DNA of 64,000 nucleotides from assembly GCA_000004985.1 (NCBI GenBank), contig GG738876.1; one strand, written 5' to 3'. Position numbers and translations under genes: made by a program. This document shows, piece by piece, positions 4,333-32,017 of this stretch. The stretch is from Naegleria gruberi. Taxonomy: Eukaryota. Each line of letters opens with the position of its first letter. Positions within the stretch are counted from its first letter, which is position 1. Below the pieces are notes generated by a model that was not told the origin of the DNA, did not search any database, and was given only the letters and a program-made list of their open reading frames with translations.

Positions 4333-5310
4333 ATGAAAACAAGTTTAATTATTGCAGCAATTGCAATTCTACTCTTCATTGCAGTTGTACAAGCAACTGA
4401 CAGCTATGCTCCAAAGCCTGACAGTTATGCTCCAAAGCCAGACAGTTACAAGCCACCTGTTAAGAGAGTGTGCAAGAAGAAATGTGTTGCTCACAAGTAT
4501 GTCAATGGAAAGTGTTTGAAACATAAGATTGTTGGTCAAAAGAAGGTCTGTGATAAGTATGCTATTGTTGGTGCTGGAAAATGCTTGAAATACAAAAAGT
4601 TCTCCAAGTGTGACAAGTACAGTAAGCCAATTAAGAAGTGTGTTAAGCATGCATACAAGAAGACTACTTGTGCTAAGAAGAAGTACTGGAAGGTTTGCGA
4701 TTCTTATGGAAGTAAGAAGGTCTGTGCTAAGAAGGCAAGCAAGAAGTATTGTGCCAAGTATGAAAATGTCACCAAGTGTGTCAAACATGCTACCAAGAAG
4801 GTCTGTAAGAAATTCAAGAAGGTTCCAATTAAGAAGTGTGAAAAGAAGAAGGTCTGTGACAAGTACACCACTGATTCATATGCTCCAGCCAAGTGCAAAT
4901 ATGTTAAGAAGTGTAAGGTTGTCTCCTATGCTAAGAAGTGTTGTCAATATAAGAAGATTAAGTATTGTAAGCAAAAGAAGACTTTCAAGAAGTGTTGTCA
5001 ATATAAGACTAAGCATTATTGTGCCAAGCATAAGACTATCAAATTCTGTAAGCACAAGAAGACTTTGAGCAAGTGTATCAAGTACAATAAGAAGAAGTAC
5101 TGTTGTCAATATAAGACCATTCCTTCCAAGTGTATCCATAAGAAGCATTGGAAGAAGTGTGTTAAAAAGTCAAAGGGAAAGAGAATTTGTAAGAAGCACA
5201 AGTTGACTGGTGGAAAGAAGGTCTGTAAGAAGTATGCTCAAAAGAAGGTCTGTGCTAAGAGAAAGAAGGTCTGTAAGAAGGTTGACTCTTATTTTGGTAA
5301 GAAGTGGTAA
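4333..5310 (+). CDS. Secreted, extremely Lys/Cys-rich repetitive protein
   Basis: N-terminal signal peptide MKTSLIIAAIAILLFIAVVQA; DSYAPKP repeats; dozens of KKVC / KKCCQYK units. The antisense ORFs in this region are repeat artefacts. Confidence 0.7.
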   Translation: MKTSLIIAAIAILLFIAVVQATDSYAPKPDSYAPKPDSYKPPVKRVCKKKCVAHKYVNGKCLKHKIVGQKKVCDKYAIVGAGKCLKYKKFSKCDKYSKPIKKCVKHAYKKTTCAKKKYWKVCDSYGSKKVCAKKASKKYCAKYENVTKCVKHATKKVCKKFKKVPIKKCEKKKVCDKYTTDSYAPAKCKYVKKCKVVSYAKKCCQYKKIKYCKQKKTFKKCCQYKTKHYCAKHKTIKFCKHKKTLSKCIKYNKKKYCCQYKTIPSKCIHKKHWKKCVKKSKGKRICKKHKLTGGKKVCKKYAQKKVCAKRKKVCKKVDSYFGKKW

Positions 5311-5417: not shown

Positions 5418-5913
5418 CTAATCAATAATTGATTGTAAACTTTGTAAATGAGCCTCAATTCGAGAAGATTTCTTTTTCATATCTTCAATTTCCTTATTAA
5501 ATTGTTCAGTGAGAGGTTCCACTAGCATCATTTGTGATTTTTCAAATCGGAGTCGTATTGTTTTTTTCTCATTCTCTAGTGAACTAATTACTTTTTGAAT
5601 GGTGGCATGATTTTTTTTGGATTTGATGATTTCCTCTTGTTTTAATTCGAATAGTTCGAGAAGGTTCATTTTGGCGACTGTGTAATTCTCTGCTCGAATG
5701 ATCGTGAATGATTTTAAGTGGTACTTTCACAATAATTACAATTAATTTCGAATAACCTTCCAGCAGATTCCTCCAAAATATTTCGGAATTAATTAATTGA
5801 TCGTGAGTTGATTTGTCGATAGAGAGAATACTTCCAAGATGTTTCACGGAGAGGAATGTAAATATTTCTATTAGAATTTCTGTTGGTAAAGAGATTGACA
5901 TTTTTTTAAACAT
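5418..5913 (-). CDS. F-box protein with C-terminal coiled-coil (probably two exons)
   Basis: N-terminal F-box LPTEILIEIFTFLSVKHLGSILSI...FWRNLL (ORF 5584..5913). An in-frame coiled-coil ORF 5418..5669 lies immediately downstream; a short intron near 5670-5720 probably joins them but I could not fix its borders. Confidence 0.45.
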
Positions 5914-6076: not shown

Positions 6077-8014
6077 TTAAAGCTCCTTTTTAATGAAAAC
6101 TGAATGATAGGAACGAAATGGATTTCTAATATCTTGATTTCTTCTATAAGAAGATGATGAGGATGTTTGTTGTGATATCTGATCTACATCTTCACTATAG
6201 TCCACTTCAAATCCATATAATTTTTCACCATCTTGATATTTGAGAGAGCTAATGAGATTGGACCACTCTTCTCTAGATCTATATTCTGCATAGTATTCAG
6301 TGCAAAAATTTGGCATTTCTCTAGGAGAAGACCAAACCATAGAGTACAGTCCGTGCATAATGTCCAACACGAGTGAAATCTCTGTGGGTGTGCAATCGTG
6401 TTCTCTAATAATGAATACACCACCAGGTTCTAAAACTCTGTGAATTTCCTTGATGGTCTCCTCTACATTCTTAATGTGATGAAGAGACATAAGGGCTACC
6501 ACAAGAGAAAACGAATTAGACTCATAGGGAAGCTTATTATTATCCTCACTGATGAGTGTAAAGGTAAATCCTGTTGTGTAACTCTTTCCAATATCTCTGA
6601 CATCGCAGCCGTGAATGTTTTCCTTACTTAATCCCAATTCAGTACCAACTACAGCAGTAATGGATCCTTCTGAACATCCAATGTCTAACATGTTTCTTAT
6701 TTTTGCATTGCTTGGAAGAATTTCCTTAATCTTACTCGATCTATTGTTTGCTCTATATGACGTATCAACAGATGAATCAGATGTCATTTTGGTTAAATTC
6801 ACAGGATTTTCTTGAAGATATTCACGTGATTTGAATATTTCGTTCTGAAACAAGTTGTAAAGTTGATCATAAATTTCCTGATCCTTCTCGTATTGTTCTA
6901 TAATTTTTCCAATCTTGTTTTGTACAATTTCTTGTTGCTTGAAACATTTCCTGAGCATTTGTTTTGAAAGAATTTGAATAAATCTCTTCTTGATATCTCC
7001 AGCAGAATTGAACCAAACATAACTGAATTGTTTTTGGGAGAGTACAGTTGGAAGACCATTCTTATCCAAATCCGTTTCCTTATCTGTATCTGATTCGAGA
7101 ATTGGCAATATAGCTACCATTGTATGGCCATCTTGAATGTTTCTATTTTCAATGATTTTTCTCGTTTTGCATTTTCCCTCTATTTGTTTCACCAGAGCTT
7201 CTGATTCTTCGTCTCTACCTCTGAAAATAAGTAAGGGACATTCTAAATCTTCCAAAATCTCTCTACTCATTTCACAAAGTGAATTAGTTTTGTCCTCAGC
7301 AGATTCGAATAATTTTGTCTTTGAAAAGAGGTCAATGTCAACATATATTATAGATTTGAAATATTCTACTTTTGAGTAGGATTCCCTCATCCAATCCATG
7401 AAATCCTGATTTACACAATTTACCAAATCATTAAATTTGAAGGATTTCAAATTATCTTTCAAACATTCAAATATTTCTCTATTATTTTCTACAGCCACAA
7501 TATTATCAAAGGATCCACTCTTTCTAATTAATAATAAACTTGTAGCTCCAACTCCAGCAAAACCATCTATAAGAGTATTCTTACTTCTACTCTTCTTTGA
7601 ATAGCTGAGTAATGGACAATTTTCATCTCTTACATCCAAAATCCAATTCATCATTAAAAGTTGTGATTCTTCTGGAACGAAACTCTTATAATCCAAACCA
7701 GCCAACTTGGCTAATTTATAATCACGGAATGGAAAGGCATCCTCCAAGTCTCTACATTTACTTGCTCCAATTTTATTCCTCTTATTGTAACTTCCTCTAT
7801 CATTGTGATGAGAAGATGATGAAGAAGAGTAATTCTGTTTCTTTCCATCATGATTATATTCATCTTTATTGTATTTTCCATAATCATCATAATTTCTCTT
7901 CTTATTGTAGGAACCATATGATGATGTCGAGTAATTATTCTTGTTATTACTTCGTCCCGAGGAATTATTGTATGAAGAATTGGATGATGAATTGTGATGA
8001 TAATTTCTTCTCAT
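6077..8014 (-). CDS. Two-domain tRNA-modification-like methyltransferase: Met-10+/Trm5-TYW2-like domain plus Trm9/ALKBH8-like class I SAM MTase domain
   Basis: N/S/Y-rich low-complexity N-terminus. LIDGFAGVGATSLLL...IVAVENNREIFECLKDNL fits the Met-10+ motifs (DxFAGxG; acEwNP...L..N). The C-terminal MLDIGCSEGS...LMSLHHIKNVEETIKEIHRVLEPGGVFIIREHD fits the Trm9-type motifs (VLDVGCGNG; AVIHHL; VLRPGG). Confidence 0.55.
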   Translation of the reverse strand: MRRNYHHNSSSNSSYNNSSGRSNNKNNYSTSSYGSYNKKRNYDDYGKYNKDEYNHDGKKQNYSSSSSSHHNDRGSYNKRNKIGASKCRDLEDAFPFRDYKLAKLAGLDYKSFVPEESQLLMMNWILDVRDENCPLLSYSKKSRSKNTLIDGFAGVGATSLLLIRKSGSFDNIVAVENNREIFECLKDNLKSFKFNDLVNCVNQDFMDWMRESYSKVEYFKSIIYVDIDLFSKTKLFESAEDKTNSLCEMSREILEDLECPLLIFRGRDEESEALVKQIEGKCKTRKIIENRNIQDGHTMVAILPILESDTDKETDLDKNGLPTVLSQKQFSYVWFNSAGDIKKRFIQILSKQMLRKCFKQQEIVQNKIGKIIEQYEKDQEIYDQLYNLFQNEIFKSREYLQENPVNLTKMTSDSSVDTSYRANNRSSKIKEILPSNAKIRNMLDIGCSEGSITAVVGTELGLSKENIHGCDVRDIGKSYTTGFTFTLISEDNNKLPYESNSFSLVVALMSLHHIKNVEETIKEIHRVLEPGGVFIIREHDCTPTEISLVLDIMHGLYSMVWSSPREMPNFCTEYYAEYRSREEWSNLISSLKYQDGEKLYGFEVDYSEDVDQISQQTSSSSSYRRNQDIRNPFRSYHSVFIKKEL

Positions 8015-8089
8015 TTTTTTTAATAATTAAAAATAGAAATTATTTACAAAATTAAATAATTAAAAGTAAAATAAATATTATAAAATGTA

Positions 8090-9760
8090 TTATATCAAAT
8101 TAACGTAGGATTTCTTTCTATAAATTCTACAATAAATAGTGGTCACTGAAATGATTAGTCCAGCCACCAGTAAAGCTCCAATTATACTAAACGAAACTGA
8201 AAGAGGAACAACTAGATCATTCACTGGACTTGGAGTATAAACTTGGAATGAGAATGAACACTGCTCAGATGGATCAGTACTTGAACATTGCAAAAGGAAT
8301 GCGATATTTTTGGTGGTTTCTGAAATTGGTAAGTTGAATTTTCTCTTTTCTTGTTTTGGTAATAAGGTAAACTTTTCTGAAAAGCTAACAGGAGATGGCA
8401 ATGGAATGCTATCATAAACATCATCTTGGATATAAATTTCCAGTTTTGTTTCATCAGATTTTGAGAGGGTATTGAAATTACCTTCCATAACGAGCTTTCT
8501 TGAATTTGAGATTGGAATTGCAAAGTAAATATTTTCTCCCACCTTGATAGTACCATTGATTTGTTCGTAAACTTTGTGGATGACCGGGGATGGTTTGAAT
8601 TCTGTTTGACCCATGATTGATAGGACAGTTTGATTCTTAATTGGATTCAATTCGAATTGCAAAATTTCAGATGTGTTGGAGGCAAGTTTAGTATAGCTAG
8701 ATTCGTAAAAGACTCCTTCGAATTGTGTAGCTACCAATAAACTATCATCTAGTAAATTCACTTGTTTTCCATTAATATCTGTTCTTGTGTTGTTAATCGA
8801 TTCAAAAGTATACTTGATGGTAAGTCTTGAAATATAATCTGGAATATTTGCTGTTCCATTATCTGTTTTGAAAGTGAATGAAAATGCATCCAGGAAGATA
8901 TACTCTCGATTTCTAAAACGGTGGAATTTCATATCTTTGGAATTGTAAGGGTTAAGATTAAATTGAATTGGAATGCTTGGTTGTGAAAATAATAATCTCA
9001 TTCTTCTATCAGGAAATTGAGTGAGTGGCAATGAGAAGGAAGAATGATAGGATAAATCAACATTCTCTCCCATTTGAATTTCCTTCTCAATTGGCTTACT
9101 ATTAGACACAATTTGAATAGTAATATTTTCAATGTTCCATTTTTCAAGTGCACCCAAATCAAATTGCAAACCATCTTTGAAACTGGAAGAATCTATTATT
9201 TCCTCCTTGTTTCTTACTAGAATTCTCATAGATTTTGGATCCACATTCAATACACCAATTTTATCCCAAACAATAAAACCCATTGTCACATTGTGTGAAT
9301 TATTGAAAGATTCCCTCGGGAAGTAAAATTCATACGAATCCATCAAGTAATAAGTCGAGTTATCAATCATTGAAAAGCATCTCCCTTCACAATTCTTTGT
9401 CGCCTCAAATTCAATGATTGGTTCGGAACTGTTTCCTTCAGGAATTGGAGCTGCAAAGATCAAATTGACACCAGCCAACTCTGACAAGGCAGATGGTAAG
9501 AAGAATAATTCACTCAGTGCCGTTTCATTATTAACACGAAACCATTTTGAAACTCTGCCCAACTCGCCAATATTACACGAATCAGCCTTCACCATATTAT
9601 CCATTCCATTCACTATCATCATCAGCAGCACTATTGCAATCATCAACATGCTTGAAATCACAGAATGCTTTCCCAATCGGTGATAATCAACTAGAGCACG
9701 ATTATTTCCTCTTCTTCTTGTTACAGCAGCTGCTCCGTTAAAATCTTGAATCATTTTCAA
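8090..9760 (-). CDS. Type I membrane glycoprotein-like hypothetical protein (556 aa)
   Basis: N-terminal signal/anchor MLMIAIVLLMMIVNG, large N-glyco-sequon-rich ectodomain, single C-terminal TM IIGALLVAGLIISVTTIY plus short basic tail. Confidence 0.5.
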   Translation of the reverse strand: MKMIQDFNGAAAVTRRRGNNRALVDYHRLGKHSVISSMLMIAIVLLMMIVNGMDNMVKADSCNIGELGRVSKWFRVNNETALSELFFLPSALSELAGVNLIFAAPIPEGNSSEPIIEFEATKNCEGRCFSMIDNSTYYLMDSYEFYFPRESFNNSHNVTMGFIVWDKIGVLNVDPKSMRILVRNKEEIIDSSSFKDGLQFDLGALEKWNIENITIQIVSNSKPIEKEIQMGENVDLSYHSSFSLPLTQFPDRRMRLLFSQPSIPIQFNLNPYNSKDMKFHRFRNREYIFLDAFSFTFKTDNGTANIPDYISRLTIKYTFESINNTRTDINGKQVNLLDDSLLVATQFEGVFYESSYTKLASNTSEILQFELNPIKNQTVLSIMGQTEFKPSPVIHKVYEQINGTIKVGENIYFAIPISNSRKLVMEGNFNTLSKSDETKLEIYIQDDVYDSIPLPSPVSFSEKFTLLPKQEKRKFNLPISETTKNIAFLLQCSSTDPSEQCSFSFQVYTPSPVNDLVVPLSVSFSIIGALLVAGLIISVTTIYCRIYRKKSYVNLI

Positions 9761-10053: not shown

Positions 10054-11635
10054 ATGAATCAAGATGAAACTCTAGAAAATTCATCACCATCATCATCCGC
10101 TCTACCCAATTCAACTTCCGATATTAATCCTTCAGCTCCTATTATTAACAATGGTAATAAGAGTTTCTTTGCATTTGAAAAGAGTCCCATCGACATTGAT
10201 AGAGTAAAATTAATTCCAACCCAACATGTTCTCCAATCTCAAGTTTATGAAGCCATTTCCATGATGAATGATAAGAATGATTTAAATAATAACAATAATA
10301 ATAAGGAAATATTATCATCATCATTAATGTTGAAGAATTTTCCATTGTTAGAATGTATTCCACGTGTTCCGATGACAACTTCCTCTCATCAGATGGTCTA
10401 CGTTCCGAATATGAGAAGTATTTTAGTATGGGGAGGAGCAAAGGTTGAAATTAGACCTTTGGATTATAATTTATTGAGTGGAAGATATGTTAATGATGAG
10501 AATAGTGAGAAGGAGATTGGATTGAATCATTGGATTGATTCGGATGGATTGAAGATTGATGTTTCTGAAGTGAATGATAATGTCTTGTCGAGTTATTTGG
10601 ATACTTCATTCTCATGTTTGGATTTGAAGAGTGAGAAATGGGAAACTAGGATACATTGCTCTTTTAAAGAGTTTGAATCATCTATTCAAATGGAAAGTGG
10701 AAAATGATGAAAATGTGGAGACTATTTTCAATTGTTCACCAACTTCTTCAAAGACAAGTCATTCATGTATTTACAATGATAAGGATAATTTAATTTATAT
10801 TTTGGGAGGTGTTTCACATGATGTGGAACAAACATTGAAAATATTTACTTTTTCATTACAAAATAGACAGTGGACTTGTTATAATTTCAAAGATACACTC
10901 AATCCTAATATCCCTTCTCCACATTTGAAAGGTCAAGTTGCCACCTATAGACCACAAACAAACACTATCCATGTCTATGGAGGTCAATATATAGATGACT
11001 ATGAATTAATATCAAACGATTGTATTTATGTTTACAATTGCACCACTAGTAAATGGGAAAATAGGTTGGTACCAGACTTACCTATTCTAGGTCGTTCCTT
11101 TTCCACCTGTGCATATTGCAAGAAGGCAGATTCCATGTTTGTATTTGGTGGTGTTCTAAATGTTATTGGAGAATTGACCAATGAATTGTGTCAGTACAGT
11201 TTTTCAGAAAACCAATGGACTGTCTACAAATACGCCTCCTCTAAGCCAATTAAACCAGTTTATGGACATTGTATGTGCTTAATTGACGATCGTTACATGT
11301 TCATTTATGGAGGTTGTGAACAAGCATTGACACCAATTCCTTCCTCTCAGTGTATTGTTTTTGACATTCTTGCTCAGAGATGGTACGATTTGAGTGAAGT
11401 TTTACAATTATTCAATTCAGTAGAAAATCCAGCTCAGATGCCACCTCTCAATTCTTCATCAATAATTTTCGATGAAAATAGTAGAAGAATTATCATTTAC
11501 GGAGGAAATGAAATTGAAAATGGAAACAAGACTTCCAATACCAGATTTTTATTCTTACTCAAAGATGGAAATAACAATTTAGAAAATATGATTGGAAAAC
11601 CAAAACTTTCAGATGTTCTAGTGGAGACCTTATAA
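10054..11635 (+). CDS. Kelch-repeat (galactose-oxidase-like beta-propeller) protein; unresolved frame break at about 10631-10707
   Basis: Repeated hhhGG...W kelch signatures (LIYILGG, IHVYGG, MFVFGG, MFIYGG, IIIYGG). Two overlapping ORFs (10054..10707 and 10631..11635) in frames +0/+1 both carry kelch repeats; I could not place a clean GT-AG intron, so this may be a frameshift, a sequencing error or a tiny intron. Confidence 0.55.
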
Positions 11636-13854: not shown

Positions 13855-15183
13855 ATGAATCATCTTAAACGATTGATTGTTTTGGCTCTTGTAGTTGTAC
13901 TCATGTTTGTCGTCTCACTTTCACATGCTCAAGACGAACAACAGGAAAACAACAATAAGAGACCACCAAGACCTTTACCTTCAGGTAGACCACCAAGACC
14001 ACATCCAGATCATTCTGGAGGGCGACCACCTCGCCCATTCCCATCTGGAGGAAGACCACCACGTCCAGATCATTCAGGAAGAAGACCAAGACCAGATCAT
14101 TCTGGTGAGAGACCACATCCACCAGGTCCACAACCAGATCATTCAGGAAGAAGACCACCAAGACCTGGTCCACATCCTGGTCAATCAGGATTACCACCAC
14201 GTTCTGATGAACAAGATGGTCAAAGTGAAAATAGACCTCGTCCACCAAGACCTCATCCAGAACGTTCAGGTGAAAGACCACATCCAAGACCTTTCCCATC
14301 TGGAGGTAGACCACCAAGACCAGACCACTCAGGAAGAAGACCAGGTCCACATCCAGATCATTCTGGAAGACCACCTCGTCCACATCCAAGACCAGAACCA
14401 TCTTCTGAAGATGACGAACACTCTGATAGACTTGAACAAGGAAACAGACCTCGTCCACCAAGACCAGATCGTTCAGGTTTGCCACCTCGTCCATTCCCAT
14501 CTGGAGGAAGACCACCAAGACCAGATCATTCAGGAAGAAGACCACATCCAAGACCTGAACACTCTGGTGAGAGACCACATCCAAGACCAGCTCACTCTGG
14601 TGAAAGACCACCAAGACCAGATCATTCAGGAAGAAGACCAAGACCAGGTCCACAACCAGACCAATCGGGAAGACCACCTCGTCCTTATCCAGAACATTCT
14701 GGTGAAAGACCAGGCCCACGTCCTCAACCACAAGAATCAACTTCATCCTTAATAGGTGAAAGACCACCAAGACCTGATAGATCTGGAAGACCACCTCGTC
14801 CATTCCCATCTGGAGGCAGACCACCAAGACCAGGCCCATCTGGAGGAAGACCAGGTCCTGGACCAGGTCCACAACCTGATGTTTCATCTGTTGAAGATCC
14901 ACTCATTGATGCTCAAAATAATACCAAGAATGAAATTCCAAATGGACCATCCAATGGTTCTGATGCTTTGGCCATTGTCTTTGGTGTTATTGGTGCAATT
15001 GTTGTCATGGCTGCTATTGCTCTTGTCATTGGAAGTGGAATTGCTGTTTTTGTTTTGAAGAAGAAGGGTTATTCACTCTCATTGAAGAAACATCAAATGT
15101 TGAGAGATGAAGACGAATTTGAATATCCACAACAAGACCAAACTCCAATTTACTCTGTCAATCAACCAGTTGCTCAAAATTAG
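13855..15183 (+). CDS. Pro/Arg/His-rich tandem-repeat type I membrane protein (extensin/mucin-like)
   Basis: Signal peptide MNHLKRLIVLALVVVLMFVVSLSHA; about 25 degenerate units of RPPRPDHSG(R/E)RP; C-terminal TM IVFGVIGAIVVMAAIALVIGSGIAVFVL and cytoplasmic tail. Antisense ORF 13901..14902 is a repeat artefact. Confidence 0.75.
   Translation: MNHLKRLIVLALVVVLMFVVSLSHAQDEQQENNNKRPPRPLPSGRPPRPHPDHSGGRPPRPFPSGGRPPRPDHSGRRPRPDHSGERPHPPGPQPDHSGRRPPRPGPHPGQSGLPPRSDEQDGQSENRPRPPRPHPERSGERPHPRPFPSGGRPPRPDHSGRRPGPHPDHSGRPPRPHPRPEPSSEDDEHSDRLEQGNRPRPPRPDRSGLPPRPFPSGGRPPRPDHSGRRPHPRPEHSGERPHPRPAHSGERPPRPDHSGRRPRPGPQPDQSGRPPRPYPEHSGERPGPRPQPQESTSSLIGERPPRPDRSGRPPRPFPSGGRPPRPGPSGGRPGPGPGPQPDVSSVEDPLIDAQNNTKNEIPNGPSNGSDALAIVFGVIGAIVVMAAIALVIGSGIAVFVLKKKGYSLSLKKHQMLRDEDEFEYPQQDQTPIYSVNQPVAQN
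13960..14880 (+). repeat. Coding tandem repeat array (27-36 nt units encoding RPPRPDHSGRRP)
   Basis: Recurring agaccaccaagaccagatcattcaggaagaagacca-like units are visible directly in the sequence. Confidence 0.8.
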
Positions 15184-15579
15184 GTTCAATTTAAGTTTTT
15201 CAAAGATTATCGAGCGATAATAACACATTAATTTGCACTACTCTAAAGTGTGCATTCTCTCCTTGTGAGTACAAATTTACAAAATAAATACATTATTTCA
15301 TTGGTAAATTGATTGGTCTGAAAACTTAATTGTAATCTTTCCTTTATTAAAATCTCAAAGTAAAATTCCAACATCATCAATTTAAAAAATTGTCGTTAGA
15401 GCTCCTTCTCTTTGTTCATCATCATCAGTAATAATAATACTTGTGCGTTGAGAAGAATTGTTCTTTTGGTGGATCATCACAATTTGACTTGAGGAATTTA
15501 AATTATCTTTCACAAACAATTCAACGTTTTGATTAAACCTATTGCTTTTTTGTATATTTGTGGAACATTAGGTATTAGG

Positions 15580-17409
15580 ATGAAGAATAGTTATTCCACA
15601 TCAACGAGTGGTGGAATTTTATATAGTTCCGAATTTATTCAAGTTAATTTAGCTGCTGATGCAAAGGGTGATGAAGAAAATGGTTTTCAACCCAAGGCTG
15701 CATGTGTCTCTTGTAGAAAGCTACATCGTCGATGCTCAAAGGAATTTCCGAAATGCTCTGAATGTGTTACTCATCACAGAAAGTGTATTTACATGGATAC
15801 AAAAACAAAAGAAAGAAATCTAGCCTCATCATCATCAACAGATCGCACTACTAGTAGAGATAGTAGGGGTAATAACCAGAATAATAATAACAGCAAACGA
15901 TCAATGAGGAGAGCAGCGTCTACAATTGAAGAACCTCAAATTGCAATCACAGAGGGACTAATTAAGAAAAGTATCAAGAGACAAACGTTCAATGTCTATA
16001 TGGACTTGGTTTGTATGGGACTACCATTCATTACCCCTCAAAATTTTGAAAACATGCTCTTTTCTGAGAATATTCTGAATCAAAACACTAATGCAACCAG
16101 TATTAAGGCATTATTTCTATCAATACAGTCATTGTGTGATCAACGGTTTGGAAGAAGGGATGCTGCTATTGCTGCCTTCAATGAAGCAAAAAGTGAGCTA
16201 CATCAAGTTTTTGAAGATTACGATAACTATCTAAATATTTGTACATATAATAATTTAGCTTACTTTTCTGGTGCTGAGGGAGAGGATCAAATGTCACAAT
16301 GGTTCATGTCACCAGTAGAGTATTACCTATCAAAATATTCTGAATTGAATTTTAATTCCCATAACGAGCTGATAGGACTTGCCTTTGAAAATTTGAACAA
16401 AGGGAGTGGAATAACTAAATTATTTTATTTTGATAATAGATACAAATGGACAAGTCTCACTTTTGGAGATTATATAGGAATACCTTTCAAGTTATCTACT
16501 GGGAAAAGATTACCTCCTGAATTGAAGCAATTGGTGGATCGTGATTTGAATGAAAACACAGCACAAGCTGAGTCAGCAGTTCTTCAATGCATTCTTCAAT
16601 TTATGAAACAACACCATCAAAAGCTTGTGCATTCACCTGGTTTTCTCAACTTGTCTCGCATAGTGGATGTATCTAGTTTTACCAAAACAAGAATAGAATC
16701 ACTCCGAGTACTCTATTCAAAAGCAAATAGCCAAGAAAAGAGAGAGTTATTTTTCAAAGAAATGCTCAATCTTGCAAATACGACTACTGAACTAAGCAAG
16801 GATGATCTATTCCCATACATTTTACCTACCAATATTTTTGGTTTTGCTCTAGCTGCAGAAATTCATTTGGAAGCATTGTCTAATTTTTCTCATTTAGTAT
16901 CTGTTAGCGAAATTTTAGGGCATCTCAAACAAGATTTCCTAGCCCTTACTGTCCTTGCAAGGAAATATGGAAGAGTGCAGAAAGTTTATGGGTACATCTA
17001 TGATGAAATTCAGTCGGTATTGTTAAATAATGGAGTTCCTGCTGAAGAGTTATTGAACCTCATTTCTAATAATTCATTCAAAACACCATCTACCCCTAAA
17101 TTATATCCCCCTATTACTGTAAATAATCAAACCCATACAATTTCTCCCACCAACAACTCAACAGATCAAGTTATAACTTCTGAAAACTCTTCGCCCACTT
17201 CTGAAAATGTATCAAAGAAGAAGGATTTTCCATCGGCAGCTTTTCTTAATAATACGCTTCGTAATTTCAAGAAAACAATTTCCAACCAAGAAATTTGCAC
17301 GATAACTCCTCGAAGTTCTACAACATCAGATAGCCCAATTAATGAGGAAGAAATATCCTGCTTGAAAAATCAAACACTCTCAATACTGCAACAAACATTT
17401 TCAAAATAA
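15580..17409 (+). CDS. Zn(2)Cys6 (Gal4-type) transcription factor
   Basis: CVSCRKLHRRCSKEFPKCSECVTHHRKC gives the CX2CX6CX7CX2CX6C spacing. First in-frame ATG is at 15580; the track start at 15529 is non-ATG. Confidence 0.75.
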   Translation: MKNSYSTSTSGGILYSSEFIQVNLAADAKGDEENGFQPKAACVSCRKLHRRCSKEFPKCSECVTHHRKCIYMDTKTKERNLASSSSTDRTTSRDSRGNNQNNNNSKRSMRRAASTIEEPQIAITEGLIKKSIKRQTFNVYMDLVCMGLPFITPQNFENMLFSENILNQNTNATSIKALFLSIQSLCDQRFGRRDAAIAAFNEAKSELHQVFEDYDNYLNICTYNNLAYFSGAEGEDQMSQWFMSPVEYYLSKYSELNFNSHNELIGLAFENLNKGSGITKLFYFDNRYKWTSLTFGDYIGIPFKLSTGKRLPPELKQLVDRDLNENTAQAESAVLQCILQFMKQHHQKLVHSPGFLNLSRIVDVSSFTKTRIESLRVLYSKANSQEKRELFFKEMLNLANTTTELSKDDLFPYILPTNIFGFALAAEIHLEALSNFSHLVSVSEILGHLKQDFLALTVLARKYGRVQKVYGYIYDEIQSVLLNNGVPAEELLNLISNNSFKTPSTPKLYPPITVNNQTHTISPTNNSTDQVITSENSSPTSENVSKKKDFPSAAFLNNTLRNFKKTISNQEICTITPRSSTTSDSPINEEEISCLKNQTLSILQQTFSK

Positions 17410-29047: not shown

Positions 29048-32017
29048 ATGTCTTCGTACGGAACGCACGGCGATGGTGGAGATGGGTTGGAATCGAGTAA
29101 ACAACTCAATGTGCTCCAAAAGATTGCTAGAAATAGAGTGGTGAATATTGTTGGTGCGATAATATTATCAATTATTTTATTATTGAGTATTGGATGTTGT
29201 GTTGTTGTTGGTGTGCTTCATTCACATTTGCTTTTCCAATGTGGATTTGCTGAATTTATATTTATGTTACTTCTTGAAGGCGCTACATTCTTCTTCTGTA
29301 TTTATCACTTGTACAATATTTACAAGTTTTTCAAGACTAGAGCACGACACTCTGGTAAGAAGGGAATTTCCGCTATTGTTGCTGCTTTATGTTCATCAGA
29401 AGTAAATCAATACAATGCATATTCTGATTCCAGACAAGGAAATGAAGAAGATGATTTTGATGATGAAGAAGATGATGAAGATGACGAAGAAGAGGAGGAA
29501 GAAGAAAGCAAATTTTCCAAGTTTGTTGTCGGCTTTTTGAAGATTGCTGCCAATGCTATTGCTGTTTTATGTTTCATCATTTTGGTACTTTTCACAGTTG
29601 TTGTCGTTCCATTGCAACAACAAACCTACCCAACTTATAACGGTACTCTTAAACTTCCAAAGTTTACACCAAAGGGATCTTCTGCTCCTACAATTTCACG
29701 TGAAAGTAATGGTGTTGTTCACATCAAGGCTTCACACGATTATGATTTATATTTCGCACAAGGTGTAGCTGTTGCTCAAGATCGTTTGTGGCAATTGGAA
29801 TTTAATCGTAGATTGTCAAATGGTATTTTGGCTGAAGTTGCTGGTGCTGATGCTGTCAATGTTGACAGTTGGTTCAGAACTCTCGGATTTGCTCGTTCTG
29901 CTGCCAACATTTTACCAACCATTGATGCTGAAACTCTTTCATTCATTCAAGCATATTGTGATGGTATTAACTCTTATATTAATAGTAATCCACCACTTCA
30001 ACCTGAATTTGTTCTCCTCAACACTAAACCAGTTGAATGGACTCCAAGTGATGTTATTGCTTATATGAAGTTTGTTTCATTCTCTCTTTCTGATAATATG
30101 GAAAAGGAAGTTTGGAGATTCAAGATGATGCAAAGAAATATCACAAAGGACAGAGTTAACGAATTGGTTCCTTTCTACCCAACTGATATGCCAACTATTT
30201 TGAGTTTGGAAGAAATGAATTTGCAAAACGTTCCAGTTGAAGAAAGAGAAAAGATTGAAAAGGCTCAACAAGATGATTCTGCTGCTTTTATTCCAAAGGC
30301 TATTCACAATTTGACCATGTCTGTCATGGAAGAAATGTTCGCTTCATTGGAAGAATCTGGTGAATGGGGTAAACAAGCTGTCAGATCAGTTTTGAAGGGT
30401 ATGGTTGCTCCAGATATCACTGGTAACAAGGCCTCAAACAATTGGGTTCTCGGAACCAAGATTACAGCAAACAATGGATCATTGTTGGCTAACGATCCTC
30501 ATTTGGATTTGACTGCTCCAGGTATTTGGTATTTGGCTCATTTGGAAGGTCCAACTCACAATGTTATTGGTTCTACTTTTGTTGGTCTTCCAGGTATTGT
30601 TATTGGTAAGAATGATTTCATTTCATGGGGTGTTACTACTGGTCTTGTTGATGCTCAAGATTTGTACGTCATGTCCGAAGTTGAAGAAGGTAAAACTTAC
30701 AACTACAATGGTAAAGTTCTCCAATATGAAACTCGTACCGAAACTATTAATGTTAAGGGAGCTGCTGCCAAGACTATTACTGTTAAGGAATCTGTCTACG
30801 GTCCAGTTATTAATGACCACTACCAAGTTGATGGTAACGTTTTGTGTTTGAAGTCTTTGACTACCTACACTAATGATACCACACTCCAAGCTTTCCTCAA
30901 GTTGAACAGAGAAGCTAAGGATTGGAACTCATTTGTTGATGTTGTCTCCTTGTTCGTTTCCCCATCCCAAAACTTTGTCTTTGCTGACAAGAGTGGTAAC
31001 ATTGGTTACTATTTGGCTGGTTTGGTTCCAATTAGAAAGGAAGGTCACAATGGTAGATTCCCAGTTATTGGTGATGGTAGCTATGATTGGCAAGGATTTA
31101 TTCCAGCTGCTGAAAAGCCAAGCGTTTACAATCCAAAGAAGGATTACATTGCTTCTGCAAACAACAGAGTTACTCCTGTTGGTTACAAGTACAGTATTAC
31201 CCAAGATTGGTACTCTTTCTATAGAGCTAGCAGAATTGTCTCATTGATTGAAACTGCTATTGAAAAGGGAACTCCACTCAATTTTGAATACATGAAGAAG
31301 ATGCAACACGACGTTCACTCACCAGTCTTTGATCAATTCAAGTTTGTTTTTGAAGCTATTCCAAAGTTCAGAAATCTCACTGAAAATAAGGAAAAGTTGA
31401 GAGAAAAGTTGATTAATTGGGACGGTGATGAAATTTTGTACTCTCAATCTGCTTCCATCTTTGAAATGTGGTACAAGATTATGGGTAACCTCACCAAGGT
31501 TGAAACTGTCAATAGATGGTCTTTCGGTCCATATCTTTACAATGCCTTGAAGAATGGTGATAGTGCTTGTGAAAATTATCACAACACTACTTGTATGTTG
31601 TTCGCTATTGACAGCTTTGAAAATGCCATTGATGCTCTTGAAGCCACTTACGGTTCTATTCCATTGTGGGGTTCTGATATTCACGAATCTGAATTCCCTA
31701 ACCCGGTAATGGATAATACTGTTCTCAAATGTTTGGCTGGAGCTACTCGTACTACTGTTGGTGGTTCTTCAACCATTAATGTTGGTGAAACTCAATATCC
31801 TGCCCTCAATTCAAGATGGGGTGTTTCTTATAGACAAGTTGTTGATTGGCGAGGCAATCAAGCTTCATTCATCATTCCACTCGGTCAATCTGGTAACTTC
31901 TTATCTCCTCTTTACACCAACTTGTTAGAAATGTGGTCTGACCCAACTGGTCAATACTTGGACATGAAATCTGCTGGTTACACTGCAACCAATACCCTTT
32001 CTCTTTCCTCTCAATAA
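29048..32017 (+). CDS. Membrane-anchored penicillin-amidase-family Ntn hydrolase (peptidase S45; AHL-acylase/aculeacin-acylase-like)
   Basis: N-terminal TM helices, poly-acidic linker EEDDFDDEEDDEDDEEEEEEE, further TM helix, then the full amidase domain. The beta-subunit N-terminal nucleophile context is GNKASNNWVLGTKITANNGSLLANDPHLDLTAPGIWYLAHL (compare E. coli PGA SNMWVIG...VNGPQFGW). ATG at 29048. Confidence 0.8.
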   Translation: MSSYGTHGDGGDGLESSKQLNVLQKIARNRVVNIVGAIILSIILLLSIGCCVVVGVLHSHLLFQCGFAEFIFMLLLEGATFFFCIYHLYNIYKFFKTRARHSGKKGISAIVAALCSSEVNQYNAYSDSRQGNEEDDFDDEEDDEDDEEEEEEESKFSKFVVGFLKIAANAIAVLCFIILVLFTVVVVPLQQQTYPTYNGTLKLPKFTPKGSSAPTISRESNGVVHIKASHDYDLYFAQGVAVAQDRLWQLEFNRRLSNGILAEVAGADAVNVDSWFRTLGFARSAANILPTIDAETLSFIQAYCDGINSYINSNPPLQPEFVLLNTKPVEWTPSDVIAYMKFVSFSLSDNMEKEVWRFKMMQRNITKDRVNELVPFYPTDMPTILSLEEMNLQNVPVEEREKIEKAQQDDSAAFIPKAIHNLTMSVMEEMFASLEESGEWGKQAVRSVLKGMVAPDITGNKASNNWVLGTKITANNGSLLANDPHLDLTAPGIWYLAHLEGPTHNVIGSTFVGLPGIVIGKNDFISWGVTTGLVDAQDLYVMSEVEEGKTYNYNGKVLQYETRTETINVKGAAAKTITVKESVYGPVINDHYQVDGNVLCLKSLTTYTNDTTLQAFLKLNREAKDWNSFVDVVSLFVSPSQNFVFADKSGNIGYYLAGLVPIRKEGHNGRFPVIGDGSYDWQGFIPAAEKPSVYNPKKDYIASANNRVTPVGYKYSITQDWYSFYRASRIVSLIETAIEKGTPLNFEYMKKMQHDVHSPVFDQFKFVFEAIPKFRNLTENKEKLREKLINWDGDEILYSQSASIFEMWYKIMGNLTKVETVNRWSFGPYLYNALKNGDSACENYHNTTCMLFAIDSFENAIDALEATYGSIPLWGSDIHESEFPNPVMDNTVLKCLAGATRTTVGGSSTINVGETQYPALNSRWGVSYRQVVDWRGNQASFIIPLGQSGNFLSPLYTNLLEMWSDPTGQYLDMKSAGYTATNTLSLSSQ

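What the first reader, a model, noticed from the sequence alone, without database searches (positions are those of the whole stretch)
6077..8014. Single polypeptide combining a Met-10+/Trm5-TYW2-like domain with a Trm9/ALKBH8-like methyltransferase domain
The N-terminal half carries the Met-10+ family hallmarks (LIDGFAGVGATS; VAVENN...L.DNL). The C-terminal half carries Trm9-type class I MTase motifs (LDIGCSEGS; LMSLHHIKN; VLEPGGVFII). These two tRNA anticodon-loop modification activities are normally separate proteins. I am not aware of this fusion as a standard architecture. It is flanked by long low-complexity N- and C-termini.
Basis: partly seen in the sequence, partly recalled or inferred. 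Interest (0 to 1): 0.55.

Follow-up and report, generated by a model that had tools for sequence, protein, structure and literature searches.

The report
Dead cap-methylase domain fused to methyltransferase
This Naegleria gruberi gene really does encode one protein with two methyltransferase-fold domains, but neither looks like a tRNA enzyme: the first is a decayed copy of an RNA-cap guanine-N2 methylase, and the second belongs to an unstudied protist and giant-virus family that is often fused to mRNA-capping enzymes.

Summary
Window 6077..8014 (-) is one uninterrupted 645-aa ORF with two class I methyltransferase folds, and the quoted motifs are all present. It matches 642/642 residues of Naegleria gruberi XP_002675799.1. 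That public model (1163 aa) probably merges it wrongly with the upstream membrane-protein ORF.

C-domain (res 322-645): generic Methyltransf_11 with no specific Trm9/ALKBH8 link. It belongs to an uncharacterised "IREHD" family of protists and giant viruses. Viral members are fused to capping enzyme, cap N7 methyltransferase, FtsJ, VP39-like, PCIF1 and TGS domains.

Best reading: an RNA 5'-cap-associated methyltransferase with a TGS1-derived non-catalytic module. Substrate is inferred, not shown. The architecture recurs in about 25 protein clusters. Interest is moderate.

The parts
6077..8014 (-). Complete single-exon ORF of 645 aa plus stop. It is the 3' part of the public model NAEGRDRAFT_69083.
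   Evidence: It matches residues 522-1163 of P0028 at 642/642 identity.
7763..8014 (-). Residues 1-84: low-complexity tail rich in S, N, Y, K and R. It is predicted disordered and contains basic clusters. Orthologues carry a similar tail, but the sequence is not conserved.
   Evidence: Composition; alignment. It was not included in the AF2 model.
7052..7762 (-). Residues 85-321: N-domain. It is a TGS1/MimiTgs-derived class I methyltransferase fold (helical N-terminal extension plus a seven-stranded sheet) with a degenerate catalytic motif.
7580..7633 (-). Residues 128-145, VRDENCPLLSYSKKSRSK: a motif (R-D/N-x-x-C-P-x-x-S-Y-x4-R-S) in the loop between the N-terminal helix and strand 1. It is characteristic of the two-domain family, and 17 of the 24 two-domain relatives keep CP...SY exactly.
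   Evidence: R129, C133, S137 and R143 are invariant. The motif is seen across N+C proteins and is absent or shortened in N-only TGS-like proteins.
7538..7573 (-). Residues 148-159, LIDGFAGVGATS: N-domain motif I (SAM loop). It is intact in Naegleria but degraded in Willaertia and in more distant family members.
   Evidence: only G156 is close to conserved across the family.
7325..7342 (-). Residues 225-230, VDIDLF: remnant of motif IV. It aligns to the flDpPWgg of TGS-like enzymes. The Asp is kept, but Pro-Pro-Trp and Gly-Gly are lost.
   Evidence: HMM alignment; family comparison. W766 of the SPPW motif is essential in human TGS1 (PMC2709555).
6740..7051 (-). Residues 322-425: helical region shared with the stand-alone C-type family. 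It carries QF..W, D..IY..L and the nearly invariant R421 and R425 just before strand 1. It is the presumed substrate lid of the C-domain.
   Evidence: R337 and R341 in model numbering; helices.
6080..6739 (-). Residues 426-645: C-domain catalytic core, a class I SAM methyltransferase (Methyltransf_11) of the 'IREHD' family.
   Evidence: Pfam E = 2e-15. The invariant residues are D444, G446, C447, G450, D471, M509, H512, H513, G532, R537, E538 and H539.
6653..6688 (-). Residues 443-454, LDIGCSEGSITA: C-domain motif I (SAM-binding loop).
6395..6412 (-). Residues 535-540, IIREHD: signature motif that separates this family from generic Methyltransf_11 proteins.
   Evidence: It is kept (ITEHD in L028) in all 14 family members compared, viral and otherwise. 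It is absent from the generic hit P0027.
8007..8192 (-). The 186-nt GT..AG 'intron' of the public gene model, which joins the upstream ORF (8090..9760) to this ORF. It is probably not a real intron.
   Evidence: Splicing 9754..8193 to 8006..6077 reproduces P0028 exactly. The segment holds the hydrophobic segment, tail and stop codon at the end of the upstream ORF and the methyltransferase ATG. Orthologues start with their own Met at the same place.

Best explanation
The gene encodes a two-domain protein.

The conserved, catalytically competent part is the C-terminal unit, made of the helical lid (residues 322-425) and a class I SAM methyltransferase core (426-645). It belongs to an uncharacterised 'IREHD' family found in protists and giant viruses.

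The N-terminal domain (85-321) descends from a MimiTgs/TGS1-type RNA-cap guanine-N2 methyltransferase. It has lost the (S/D)PPW motif, whose Trp stacks on m7G, and the downstream P-R-N element. So it most likely no longer methylates guanine N2. I infer that it acts as a non-catalytic module for substrate (5'-end or cap RNA) binding or for scaffolding the C-domain, with a family-specific R-D-x-x-C-P-x-x-S-Y-x4-R-S loop.

The most likely substrate of the C-domain is the 5' cap region of RNA, because viral members of the family are fused to other cap-forming and cap-modifying enzymes.

Shown: the architecture, the folds, the family relationships, the motif loss and the fusion partners.
Inferred: RNA-cap substrate, non-catalytic role of the N-domain, and the role of the tail. 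The atom that is methylated is unknown.
For: N-domain is TGS1-derived:
- A profile search of 1.8e9 proteins finds N-only relatives that carry DPPWGG.
- 53 of 58 of these are PF09445, RNA cap guanine-N2 methyltransferase.
- P0036, named as an L320 homologue by its source, matches profile positions 3-229 at E = 5e-20. L320 makes 2,7-dimethylguanosine caps (PMC4402537).
- The orthologue P0002 carries a precomputed PF09445 hit.

N-domain has lost catalysis:
- VDIDLF aligns to flDpPWgg.
- None of the 24 two-domain relatives compared keeps PPW, and motif I is degraded in many.
- W766A abolishes human TGS1 activity (PMC2709555).

C-domain is the conserved enzyme:
- 12 residues are invariant across 27 sequences, including motifs I and II.
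- The family occurs at 34 giant-virus loci.

Link to the cap, with signature motifs retained in each case:
- L018: guanylyltransferase + mRNA_cap_C + N7 methyltransferase + C-domain
- L028: C-domain + N7 methyltransferase
- L008, L009, L025, L026: FtsJ + C-domain
- L037: PCIF1_WW + C-domain
- P0053: TGS + VP39-like + C-domain
- BFVD hits include a Pithovirus protein named for PCIF1.

A pTM of 0.86 for the two-domain model suggests a fixed arrangement between the domains.
Against: - No biochemical data exist for any family member.
- The closest solved structures by sequence are small-molecule methyltransferases (JHAMT, RebM, AtmM). Some database names read UbiE or UbiG.
- Some viral fusions are unrelated to the cap: a Ulp1 protease, an OTU domain and a weak kinase-like hit.
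- FtsJ domains are not exclusively cap enzymes.
- In Naegleria itself the N-domain keeps motif I (AGVG), the motif II Glu and the motif III Asp-Phe. It may therefore still bind SAM and could have a new activity.
- If the N-domain binds the cap, it must do so without the canonical stacking Trp.
Confidence: 0.5

Rival explanations
1. One reading: a bifunctional tRNA-modifying enzyme that fuses a Trm5/TYW2 (Met-10+) domain to a Trm9/ALKBH8-type domain. Both would act on the anticodon loop.
For: PF02475 is the top Pfam hit for the N-half (28.1-29.1 bits, cut-off 28). The N-domain profile hits archaeal Taw2 (MJ1557) at E = 1.3e-4 and Trm5 at 9e-3 in the PDB. The C-half is Methyltransf_11, the Pfam family that also contains Trm9.
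Against: - The PF02475 and PDB matches cover only about 60-70 residues (motifs I-III). TGS1 and RsmD score almost the same.
- No NLP/NPP catalytic motif is present.
- The nearest relatives across the full domain are cap guanine-N2 methyltransferases.
- No Trm9 or ALKBH8 chain appears in the best 60 PDB profile hits or the top 50 Foldseek hits.
- Viral fusion partners are cap enzymes, not tRNA enzymes.
Confidence: 0.04
2. A truly bifunctional enzyme. In Naegleria the N-domain still binds SAM and has acquired a new methyl-acceptor specificity through the CP..SY..RS loop. The protein would then install two different methyl groups on the same RNA 5' end.
For: Naegleria orthologues keep motif I (AGVG), the motif II Glu and the motif III Asp-Phe, and D226 is invariant among the seven closest homologues. 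Multi-methyltransferase cap proteins such as P0053 exist.
Against: Motif I and the motif II acid are not conserved in Willaertia P0003, P0005, P0006 or many other family members. That pattern is not expected for a catalytic SAM site. The residues following D226 are variable.
Confidence: 0.15
3. The C-domain is a small-molecule or protein methyltransferase (UbiE/UbiG-like or JHAMT-like) unrelated to RNA. The N-domain would be a regulatory or oligomerisation relic, comparable to the vestigial domain of nematode phosphoethanolamine methyltransferases.
For: The best PDB sequence hits are JHAMT, RebM, AtmM and PMT. The best Foldseek hits are tandem-domain phosphoethanolamine N-methyltransferases. 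Automated names include UbiE and UbiG.
Against: These matches are generic (about 10-20% identity, SAM core only). They do not explain why at least five kinds of cap or RNA enzyme recur as fusion partners, nor the TGS1 ancestry of the N-domain.
Confidence: 0.2
4. The public 1163-aa model is correct. The methyltransferase would then be the cytoplasmic part of a larger protein that begins with the upstream 520-residue extracellular-type region.
For: A GT..AG segment of 186 nt can be spliced in frame and reproduces XP_002675799.1 exactly.
Against: The 'intron' removes a hydrophobic segment, a basic tail and a stop codon that complete the upstream ORF. It also removes the ATG of this ORF. The orthologues in N. 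fowleri, P0002 and Willaertia are 541-671 aa and start with their own Met and a similar tail. The N. fowleri gene has different upstream neighbours.
Confidence: 0.07

Closest known systems
Trimethylguanosine synthase family (human TGS1, Giardia Tgs2, mimivirus L320/MimiTgs; Pfam PF09445 Methyltransf_15)
   Same: The N-domain shares the fold, including a helical N-terminal extension. It shares the F-V-P-E junction (SVTPE in TGS1) and motifs I-III. It aligns end to end with L320-like proteins.
   Different: The catalytic and m7G-stacking (S/D)PPWGG motif reads D-I-D-L-F with GG deleted, and the P-R-N element is lost. The PF09445 score is below the cut-off (19.6-21.4 vs 22). There is an extra CP..SY..RS loop. 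The domain is always followed by a second methyltransferase domain.
Trm5/TYW2 (Met-10+; Pfam PF02475)
   Same: Similar motifs I-III (D-x-F-A-G-x-G ... A-x-E-x-N). The Pfam score is marginally above the cut-off.
   Different: The match covers under half of the Pfam model. There is no NLP/NPP motif. No Trm5-specific accessory family was hit in the Pfam scan. The nearest relatives are not Trm5/TYW2.
Trm9 / ALKBH8 methyltransferase domain (Methyltransf_11 members)
   Same: Same broad Pfam family and same fold.
   Different: There is no specific similarity. None appears among the best 60 PDB profile matches or the top 50 structural matches. The C-domain has its own signature (DxGCxEGxIT, HGCDV, IREHD, LDxxHGxY) and a helical lid of about 100 residues.
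Tandem methyltransferases with one vestigial domain, and pseudo-methyltransferase partners (METTL14, Trm6)
   Same: An active class I methyltransferase is paired with a degenerate methyltransferase-fold module. Tandem-domain phosphoethanolamine methyltransferases are the top Foldseek matches to the whole model. That nematode PMT-1 and PMT-2 each keep one vestigial domain, and the METTL14 and Trm6 cases, come from general knowledge.
   Different: There is no sequence relationship beyond the fold (TM 0.24-0.29). The domain ancestry is different (TGS1-type plus IREHD-type), and the likely substrate is RNA.
Giant-virus multi-domain capping proteins
   Same: The same C-type domain is fused to guanylyltransferase, N7 methyltransferase, FtsJ, VP39-like, PCIF1 and TGS domains at viral loci.
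   Different: The Naegleria protein has no guanylyltransferase, N7 or 2'-O domain. Its TGS-type partner is degenerate. No Naegleria-type N-domain was found in IMG/VR, though that search had limited sensitivity.

Membership tests
Trm5/TYW2 (PF02475, Met-10+) | Pfam model matched above the gathering score over most of its length | tested here: inconclusive
   Score is 28.1 bits (whole protein) or 29.1 (domain alone) against a cut-off of 28. Only profile positions 32-101 of 164 are matched.
Trm5/TYW2 (PF02475, Met-10+) | Catalytic motif IV (N-L/P-P-K/H type) after strand 4 | tested here: not met
   The sequence after strand 4 is V-D-I-D-L-F. No NLP or NPP motif is present in any family member.
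Trm5/TYW2 (PF02475, Met-10+) | Nearest relatives are Trm5/TYW2 proteins | tested here: not met
   53 of 58 nearest N-only relatives match PF09445, and 25 of 58 also match PF02475. P0036, the closest full-length one, hits PF09445 at 72 bits and has no PF02475 hit.
TGS1 / RNA cap guanine-N2 methyltransferase (PF09445) | Homology over the whole catalytic domain, including the N-terminal extension | tested here: met
TGS1 / RNA cap guanine-N2 methyltransferase (PF09445) | (S/D)PPW(GG) motif with the m7G-stacking Trp | tested here: not met
   The motif is replaced by D-I-D-L-F, and it is absent from all 24 two-domain relatives compared. The Trp is essential in hTGS1 (PMC2709555).
TGS1 / RNA cap guanine-N2 methyltransferase (PF09445) | P-R-N element after strand 5 (Arg807 binds the cap beta-phosphate) | tested here: not met
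   The consensus LKLPxN of TGS-like relatives aligns to LLIFRGRDEE in the window protein. The role of Arg807 is taken from PMC2709555.
TGS1 / RNA cap guanine-N2 methyltransferase (PF09445) | Guanine-N2 methylation of m7G caps | not testable with these tools
   This needs an enzyme assay.
Trm9 / ALKBH8 tRNA methyltransferase | Specific sequence or structure similarity beyond generic Methyltransf_11 | tested here: not met
   The Methyltransf_11 hit (2e-15) is generic. No Trm9 or ALKBH8 chain is in the best 60 PDB profile matches or the top 50 Foldseek matches.
Trm9 / ALKBH8 tRNA methyltransferase | Trm112 partner dependence; mcm5U34 formation | not testable with these tools
   This needs biochemistry or genetics.
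Uncharacterised 'IREHD' methyltransferase family (protists and giant viruses) | Signature motifs R..x..R before strand 1, DxGCxEGxIT, HGCDV, LMSLHH, IREHD, LDxxHGxY, Y.A.Y and a terminal NP..Y strand | tested here: met
   All are present in the window ORF. 12 residues are invariant across 27 sequences. The motifs are retained in 14 other family members and absent from the generic hit P0027.
Two-domain (pseudo-TGS + IREHD) subfamily | N-domain with W..R(D/N)xxCPxxSYx4RS and no PPW, followed by the lid and the IREHD domain | tested here: met
   About 25 clusters share the architecture, including N. fowleri, Willaertia magna (two copies) and Acrasis kona.

The most novel reading that the evidence does not exclude
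The 'IREHD' domain is a previously unrecognised RNA 5'-cap (or cap-adjacent nucleotide) methyltransferase that installs a cap methylation with no assigned enzyme. It would be used by Heterolobosea and other protists, and by many giant viruses. In the Naegleria-type proteins, a TGS1-derived pseudoenzyme would have been recruited as the module that positions the RNA 5' end.
Probability: 0.3. Interest if true: 0.75.

Novelty: new variant of a known kind. Interest (0 to 1): 0.5.

Why it matters
If the inference holds, this defines an unstudied methyltransferase family tied to mRNA or snRNA cap chemistry. It would be shared between free-living and pathogenic amoeboflagellates (N. fowleri has an orthologue) and giant viruses.

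It would also add a clear example of a cap-methylase fold recycled as a pseudoenzyme.

The family offers candidate enzymes for cap modifications whose writers are unknown, and possibly new tools for mRNA cap engineering.

On the practical side, this work flags a probably mis-merged public gene model in N. gruberi. It also corrects a tempting but wrong tRNA-enzyme annotation.

Tried and rejected
- A word-index homologue search with the N-domain alone found nothing. The same search with the whole protein found only 6 proteins, perhaps because the low-complexity tail took up the candidate list. The index-free profile search was needed.
- The Foldseek afdb50 library was unavailable.
- A viral-contig scan with the 7-sequence N-domain alignment failed for lack of a conserved block. 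A scan with 4 closer sequences found no viral relative. So I could not show a viral origin for the pseudo-TGS domain.
- NCBIfam gave only sub-threshold generic hits such as UbiE, BioC and RsmD.
- No tRNA genes lie in the first 20 kb of the window, and the neighbouring genes are functionally unrelated. Genomic context therefore gives no clue.
- Literature searches for the locus tag, for the IREHD motif, for a TGS pseudo-methyltransferase, and for PCIF1 in giant viruses found nothing on this family. The medusavirus Cap3 methyltransferase paper concerns a VP39-type 2'-O enzyme, not this family.
- Model coordinates are not exposed. I could not inspect the domain interface or the position of the CP..SY..RS loop relative to the C-domain active site.
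- I considered an origin of the Naegleria gene from an integrated giant virus. The gene's GC content (0.33) matches the window (0.34), and orthologues exist in three other heterolobosean species. That argues against a recent insertion, but I did not test it further.
Full report
**What is there**

Window 6077..8014 (minus strand) is one uninterrupted ORF of 645 codons, running from ATG at 8014 to TAA at 6079..6077.

The window comes from Naegleria gruberi. The ORF matches residues 522-1163 of XP_002675799.1 / NAEGRDRAFT_69083 (P0028) at 642/642 identity. GC content is about 0.33 for both the ORF and the window. No second copy lies in the window.

**Gene model**

The public 1163-aa model is reproduced exactly by joining 9754..8193 to 8006..6077 over a 186-nt GT..AG segment, 8192..8007. 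That segment contains four things:
- the last 33 codons of the upstream ORF 8090..9760 (a hydrophobic helix plus a basic tail)
- the stop codon of that upstream ORF
- a 75-nt AT-rich spacer
- the ATG of the methyltransferase ORF

Orthologues are 541-671 aa and begin with their own Met and a similar low-complexity tail. P0002 starts MSHRRNNYH, against MRRNYHH here. The N. fowleri gene is an intronless 2016-nt ORF with different upstream neighbours. I conclude that the 645-aa ORF is the real product and the public model merges two genes. This is an inference, and cDNA would settle it.

**Anatomy**

- Residues 1-84 form a tail rich in S, N, Y, K and R.
- AF2 on residues 85-645, using a 27-sequence alignment, gave pLDDT 86.4 and pTM 0.86.
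- Residues 85-321 form a helical N-terminal extension plus a seven-stranded Rossmann-type sheet.
- Residues 322-425 form a helical region.
- Residues 426-645 form a second seven-stranded class I methyltransferase core.
- The only poorly modelled parts are short stretches around residues 596-599 and 612-625, between the last two strands.

So the 'low-complexity C-terminus' is really an internal loop, and the terminal strand NPFRSYHSVF is conserved.

**N-domain identity**

Pfam gives TRM5/TYW2 at 28.1 bits for the whole protein and 29.1 for the domain alone, against a cut-off of 28. Only profile positions 32-101 of 164 are matched. RsmD (PF03602) and TGS1 (PF09445) score a few bits lower on the same stretch. 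A profile of seven orthologues hits Taw2, Trm5 and TGS1 in the PDB over about 60 residues only. This level of evidence cannot choose between the families.

An index-free profile search of 1.84 billion representative proteins gave 91 hits. These split into two groups:
- Proteins that also carry the C-domain.
- Shorter N-only proteins with canonical VDGTAGLGG, AIELD and (D/A)PPWGG motifs.

Of 58 N-only relatives, 53 match PF09445 (RNA cap guanine-N2 methyltransferase), 42 match PF03602 and 25 match PF02475.

The closest full-length N-only relative is P0036. It matches profile positions 3-229 at E = 5e-20, hits PF09445 at 72 bits and has no PF02475 hit. It is an Andalucia godoyi protein named after mimivirus L320. 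L320 is the cap guanine-N2 methyltransferase that makes 2,7-dimethylguanosine caps (PMC4402537).

Taken together, the N-domain descends from the TGS1/MimiTgs family.

**Loss of the TGS active site**

In the HMM alignment, the TGS motif flDpPWgg pairs with VDIDLF (residues 225-230). The Asp is kept, Pro-Pro-Trp is replaced and Gly-Gly is deleted. The LKLPxN element pairs with LLIFRGRDEE.

In human TGS1 the m7G base stacks on Trp766 of the SPPW motif, W766A leaves under 1% activity, and Arg807 binds the cap beta-phosphate. MimiTgs and Giardia Tgs2 carry DPPW (PMC2709555).

None of the 24 two-domain relatives compared keeps PPW. Motif I is reduced to a single near-conserved Gly (G156), and the motif II acid is missing in several members.

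N. gruberi, N. fowleri and P0002 still have AGVG, the motif II Glu and the motif III Asp-Phe. SAM binding by the Naegleria domain therefore cannot be excluded.

The two-domain family has a characteristic conserved loop, R-D/N-x-x-C-P-x-x-S-Y-x4-R-S (residues 129-144), between the N-terminal helix and strand 1. Its function is unknown.

**C-domain identity**

Pfam gives generic Methyltransf_11/25/23/31/12 hits (2e-15). NCBIfam gives only far sub-threshold UbiE/BioC-type hits.

The best PDB sequence matches are JHAMT, RebM, AtmM and other small-molecule methyltransferases. No chain named Trm9 or ALKBH8 is in the best 60. Foldseek finds tandem phosphoethanolamine methyltransferases and generic class I enzymes at low TM-scores.

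Real relatives do exist:
- 22 proteins in the 5.8-billion-sequence collection match the C-unit, including its helical lid.
- 34 IMG/VR loci match, mostly giant-virus MAGs.
- One ENA contig has typical giant-virus neighbours: EsV_1_7_cys, Rpb5 and eIF-1A.

Twelve residues are invariant across 27 sequences. They define the motifs DxGCxEGxIT, HGCDV, LMSLHH and IREHD. LDxxHGxY is nearly invariant, as are two arginines just before strand 1.

**Clue to function**

Viral members are either stand-alone proteins of about 300 aa or fused to other domains:

| Locus or protein | Length | Architecture |
|---|---|---|
| L018 | 1310 aa | guanylyltransferase + mRNA_cap_C + mRNA guanine-N7 methyltransferase + C-domain |
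| L028 | 807 aa | C-domain + N7 methyltransferase |
| L008, L009, L025, L026 | 698-989 aa | FtsJ-like + C-domain |
| L037 | 1227 aa | PCIF1_WW + C-domain + OTU |
| P0053 | 1384 aa | TGS-type repeats + VP39-like 2'-O-methyltransferase + C-domain |

BFVD structural matches include a Pithovirus protein named for PCIF1, and large proteins named DNA ligase or RNA polymerase subunit.

The signature motifs are intact in all of these fusions, whereas a generic Methyltransf_11 hit (P0027) lacks them. Partners unrelated to the cap also occur: Ulp1, OTU and a weak kinase-like hit.

The recurring theme is cap formation and modification, and that agrees with the TGS ancestry of the N-domain in the Naegleria-type proteins. 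This is guilt by association, not proof.

**Distribution of the two-domain architecture**

It is found in N. gruberi, N. fowleri, Willaertia magna (two paralogues) and Acrasis kona, which are all Heterolobosea by general knowledge. It also occurs in about 20 unnamed clusters from metagenomes and read-archive assemblies. The two contexts I inspected looked eukaryotic rather than viral. No Naegleria-type N-domain was found in IMG/VR, but that search had limited sensitivity.

**Verdict**

The tRNA (Trm5/TYW2 + Trm9) interpretation is not supported, except that the N-half does resemble that group in its SAM-binding core.

The best-supported reading has two parts:
- The N-domain is a TGS1-derived, probably non-catalytic module.
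- The conserved C-terminal 'IREHD' domain is the enzyme.

I put the probability that the C-domain acts on the RNA 5' cap region at about 0.5. The methylated atom is unknown.

The protein is already in public databases as a hypothetical protein. I found no paper on the family. I rate it a new variant of a known kind (tandem methyltransferase with a degenerate domain), of moderate interest, with upside if the family turns out to be a new cap methyltransferase.

Noticed in passing
window 8007-8192 and 8090-9760 (-): The public N. gruberi model XP_002675799.1 (1163 aa) joins the upstream 556-aa membrane-type ORF to the methyltransferase ORF over a 186-nt GT..AG segment. That segment contains a hydrophobic segment, a stop codon and the methyltransferase start codon. 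The model is probably a merge of two genes.
   Followed up: yes
L018:1034-4963; L028:5872-8292; L008:4708-6813; L009:4714-6807; L025:3592-6558; L037:3844-7524: Giant-virus ORFs fuse the same 'IREHD' methyltransferase domain to guanylyltransferase + N7 methyltransferase, to N7 methyltransferase alone, to FtsJ-like domains, or to PCIF1_WW + OTU.
   Followed up: partly
P0053 / P0119 (1384-1386 aa, metagenome): A single protein carries two or three TGS-type (Methyltransf_15) repeats, a VP39-like (PARP_regulatory) 2'-O-methyltransferase and the IREHD domain. It looks like an all-in-one cap hypermethylation protein.
   Followed up: partly
P0048 (1234 aa, metagenome): An RNA polymerase Rpb1 domain 5 is fused to a C-terminal TGS-type cap guanine-N2 methyltransferase domain.
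   Followed up: no
L016:3814-6720: A 969-aa giant-virus ORF with a TGS-like domain lies about 3 kb from a stand-alone IREHD-type gene (L016:44-838).
   Followed up: no
window 4333-5310 (+): A 325-aa ORF with a signal-like N-terminus, DSYAPKP repeats and an extremely Lys- and Cys-rich body. It has no Pfam match.
   Followed up: partly
window 5418-5913 (-): Two overlapping ORFs in different frames. The upstream one carries an F-box-like motif. They may be one gene interrupted by a short intron or a frameshift.
   Followed up: partly
window 10054-11635 (+): Two overlapping ORFs. The second is a Kelch beta-propeller protein. They are probably one gene with an intron.
   Followed up: partly
window 14001-16000 and 30001-32000: Local GC rises to 0.41 and 0.39, against a window background of about 0.33. 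I did not examine these regions.
   Followed up: no
L001:12018-13265 (N. fowleri): In N. fowleri an RNA_ligase (PF09414) gene lies two genes downstream of the orthologue. The N. gruberi window shows no such neighbour within 10 kb, so local synteny is not conserved.
   Followed up: no
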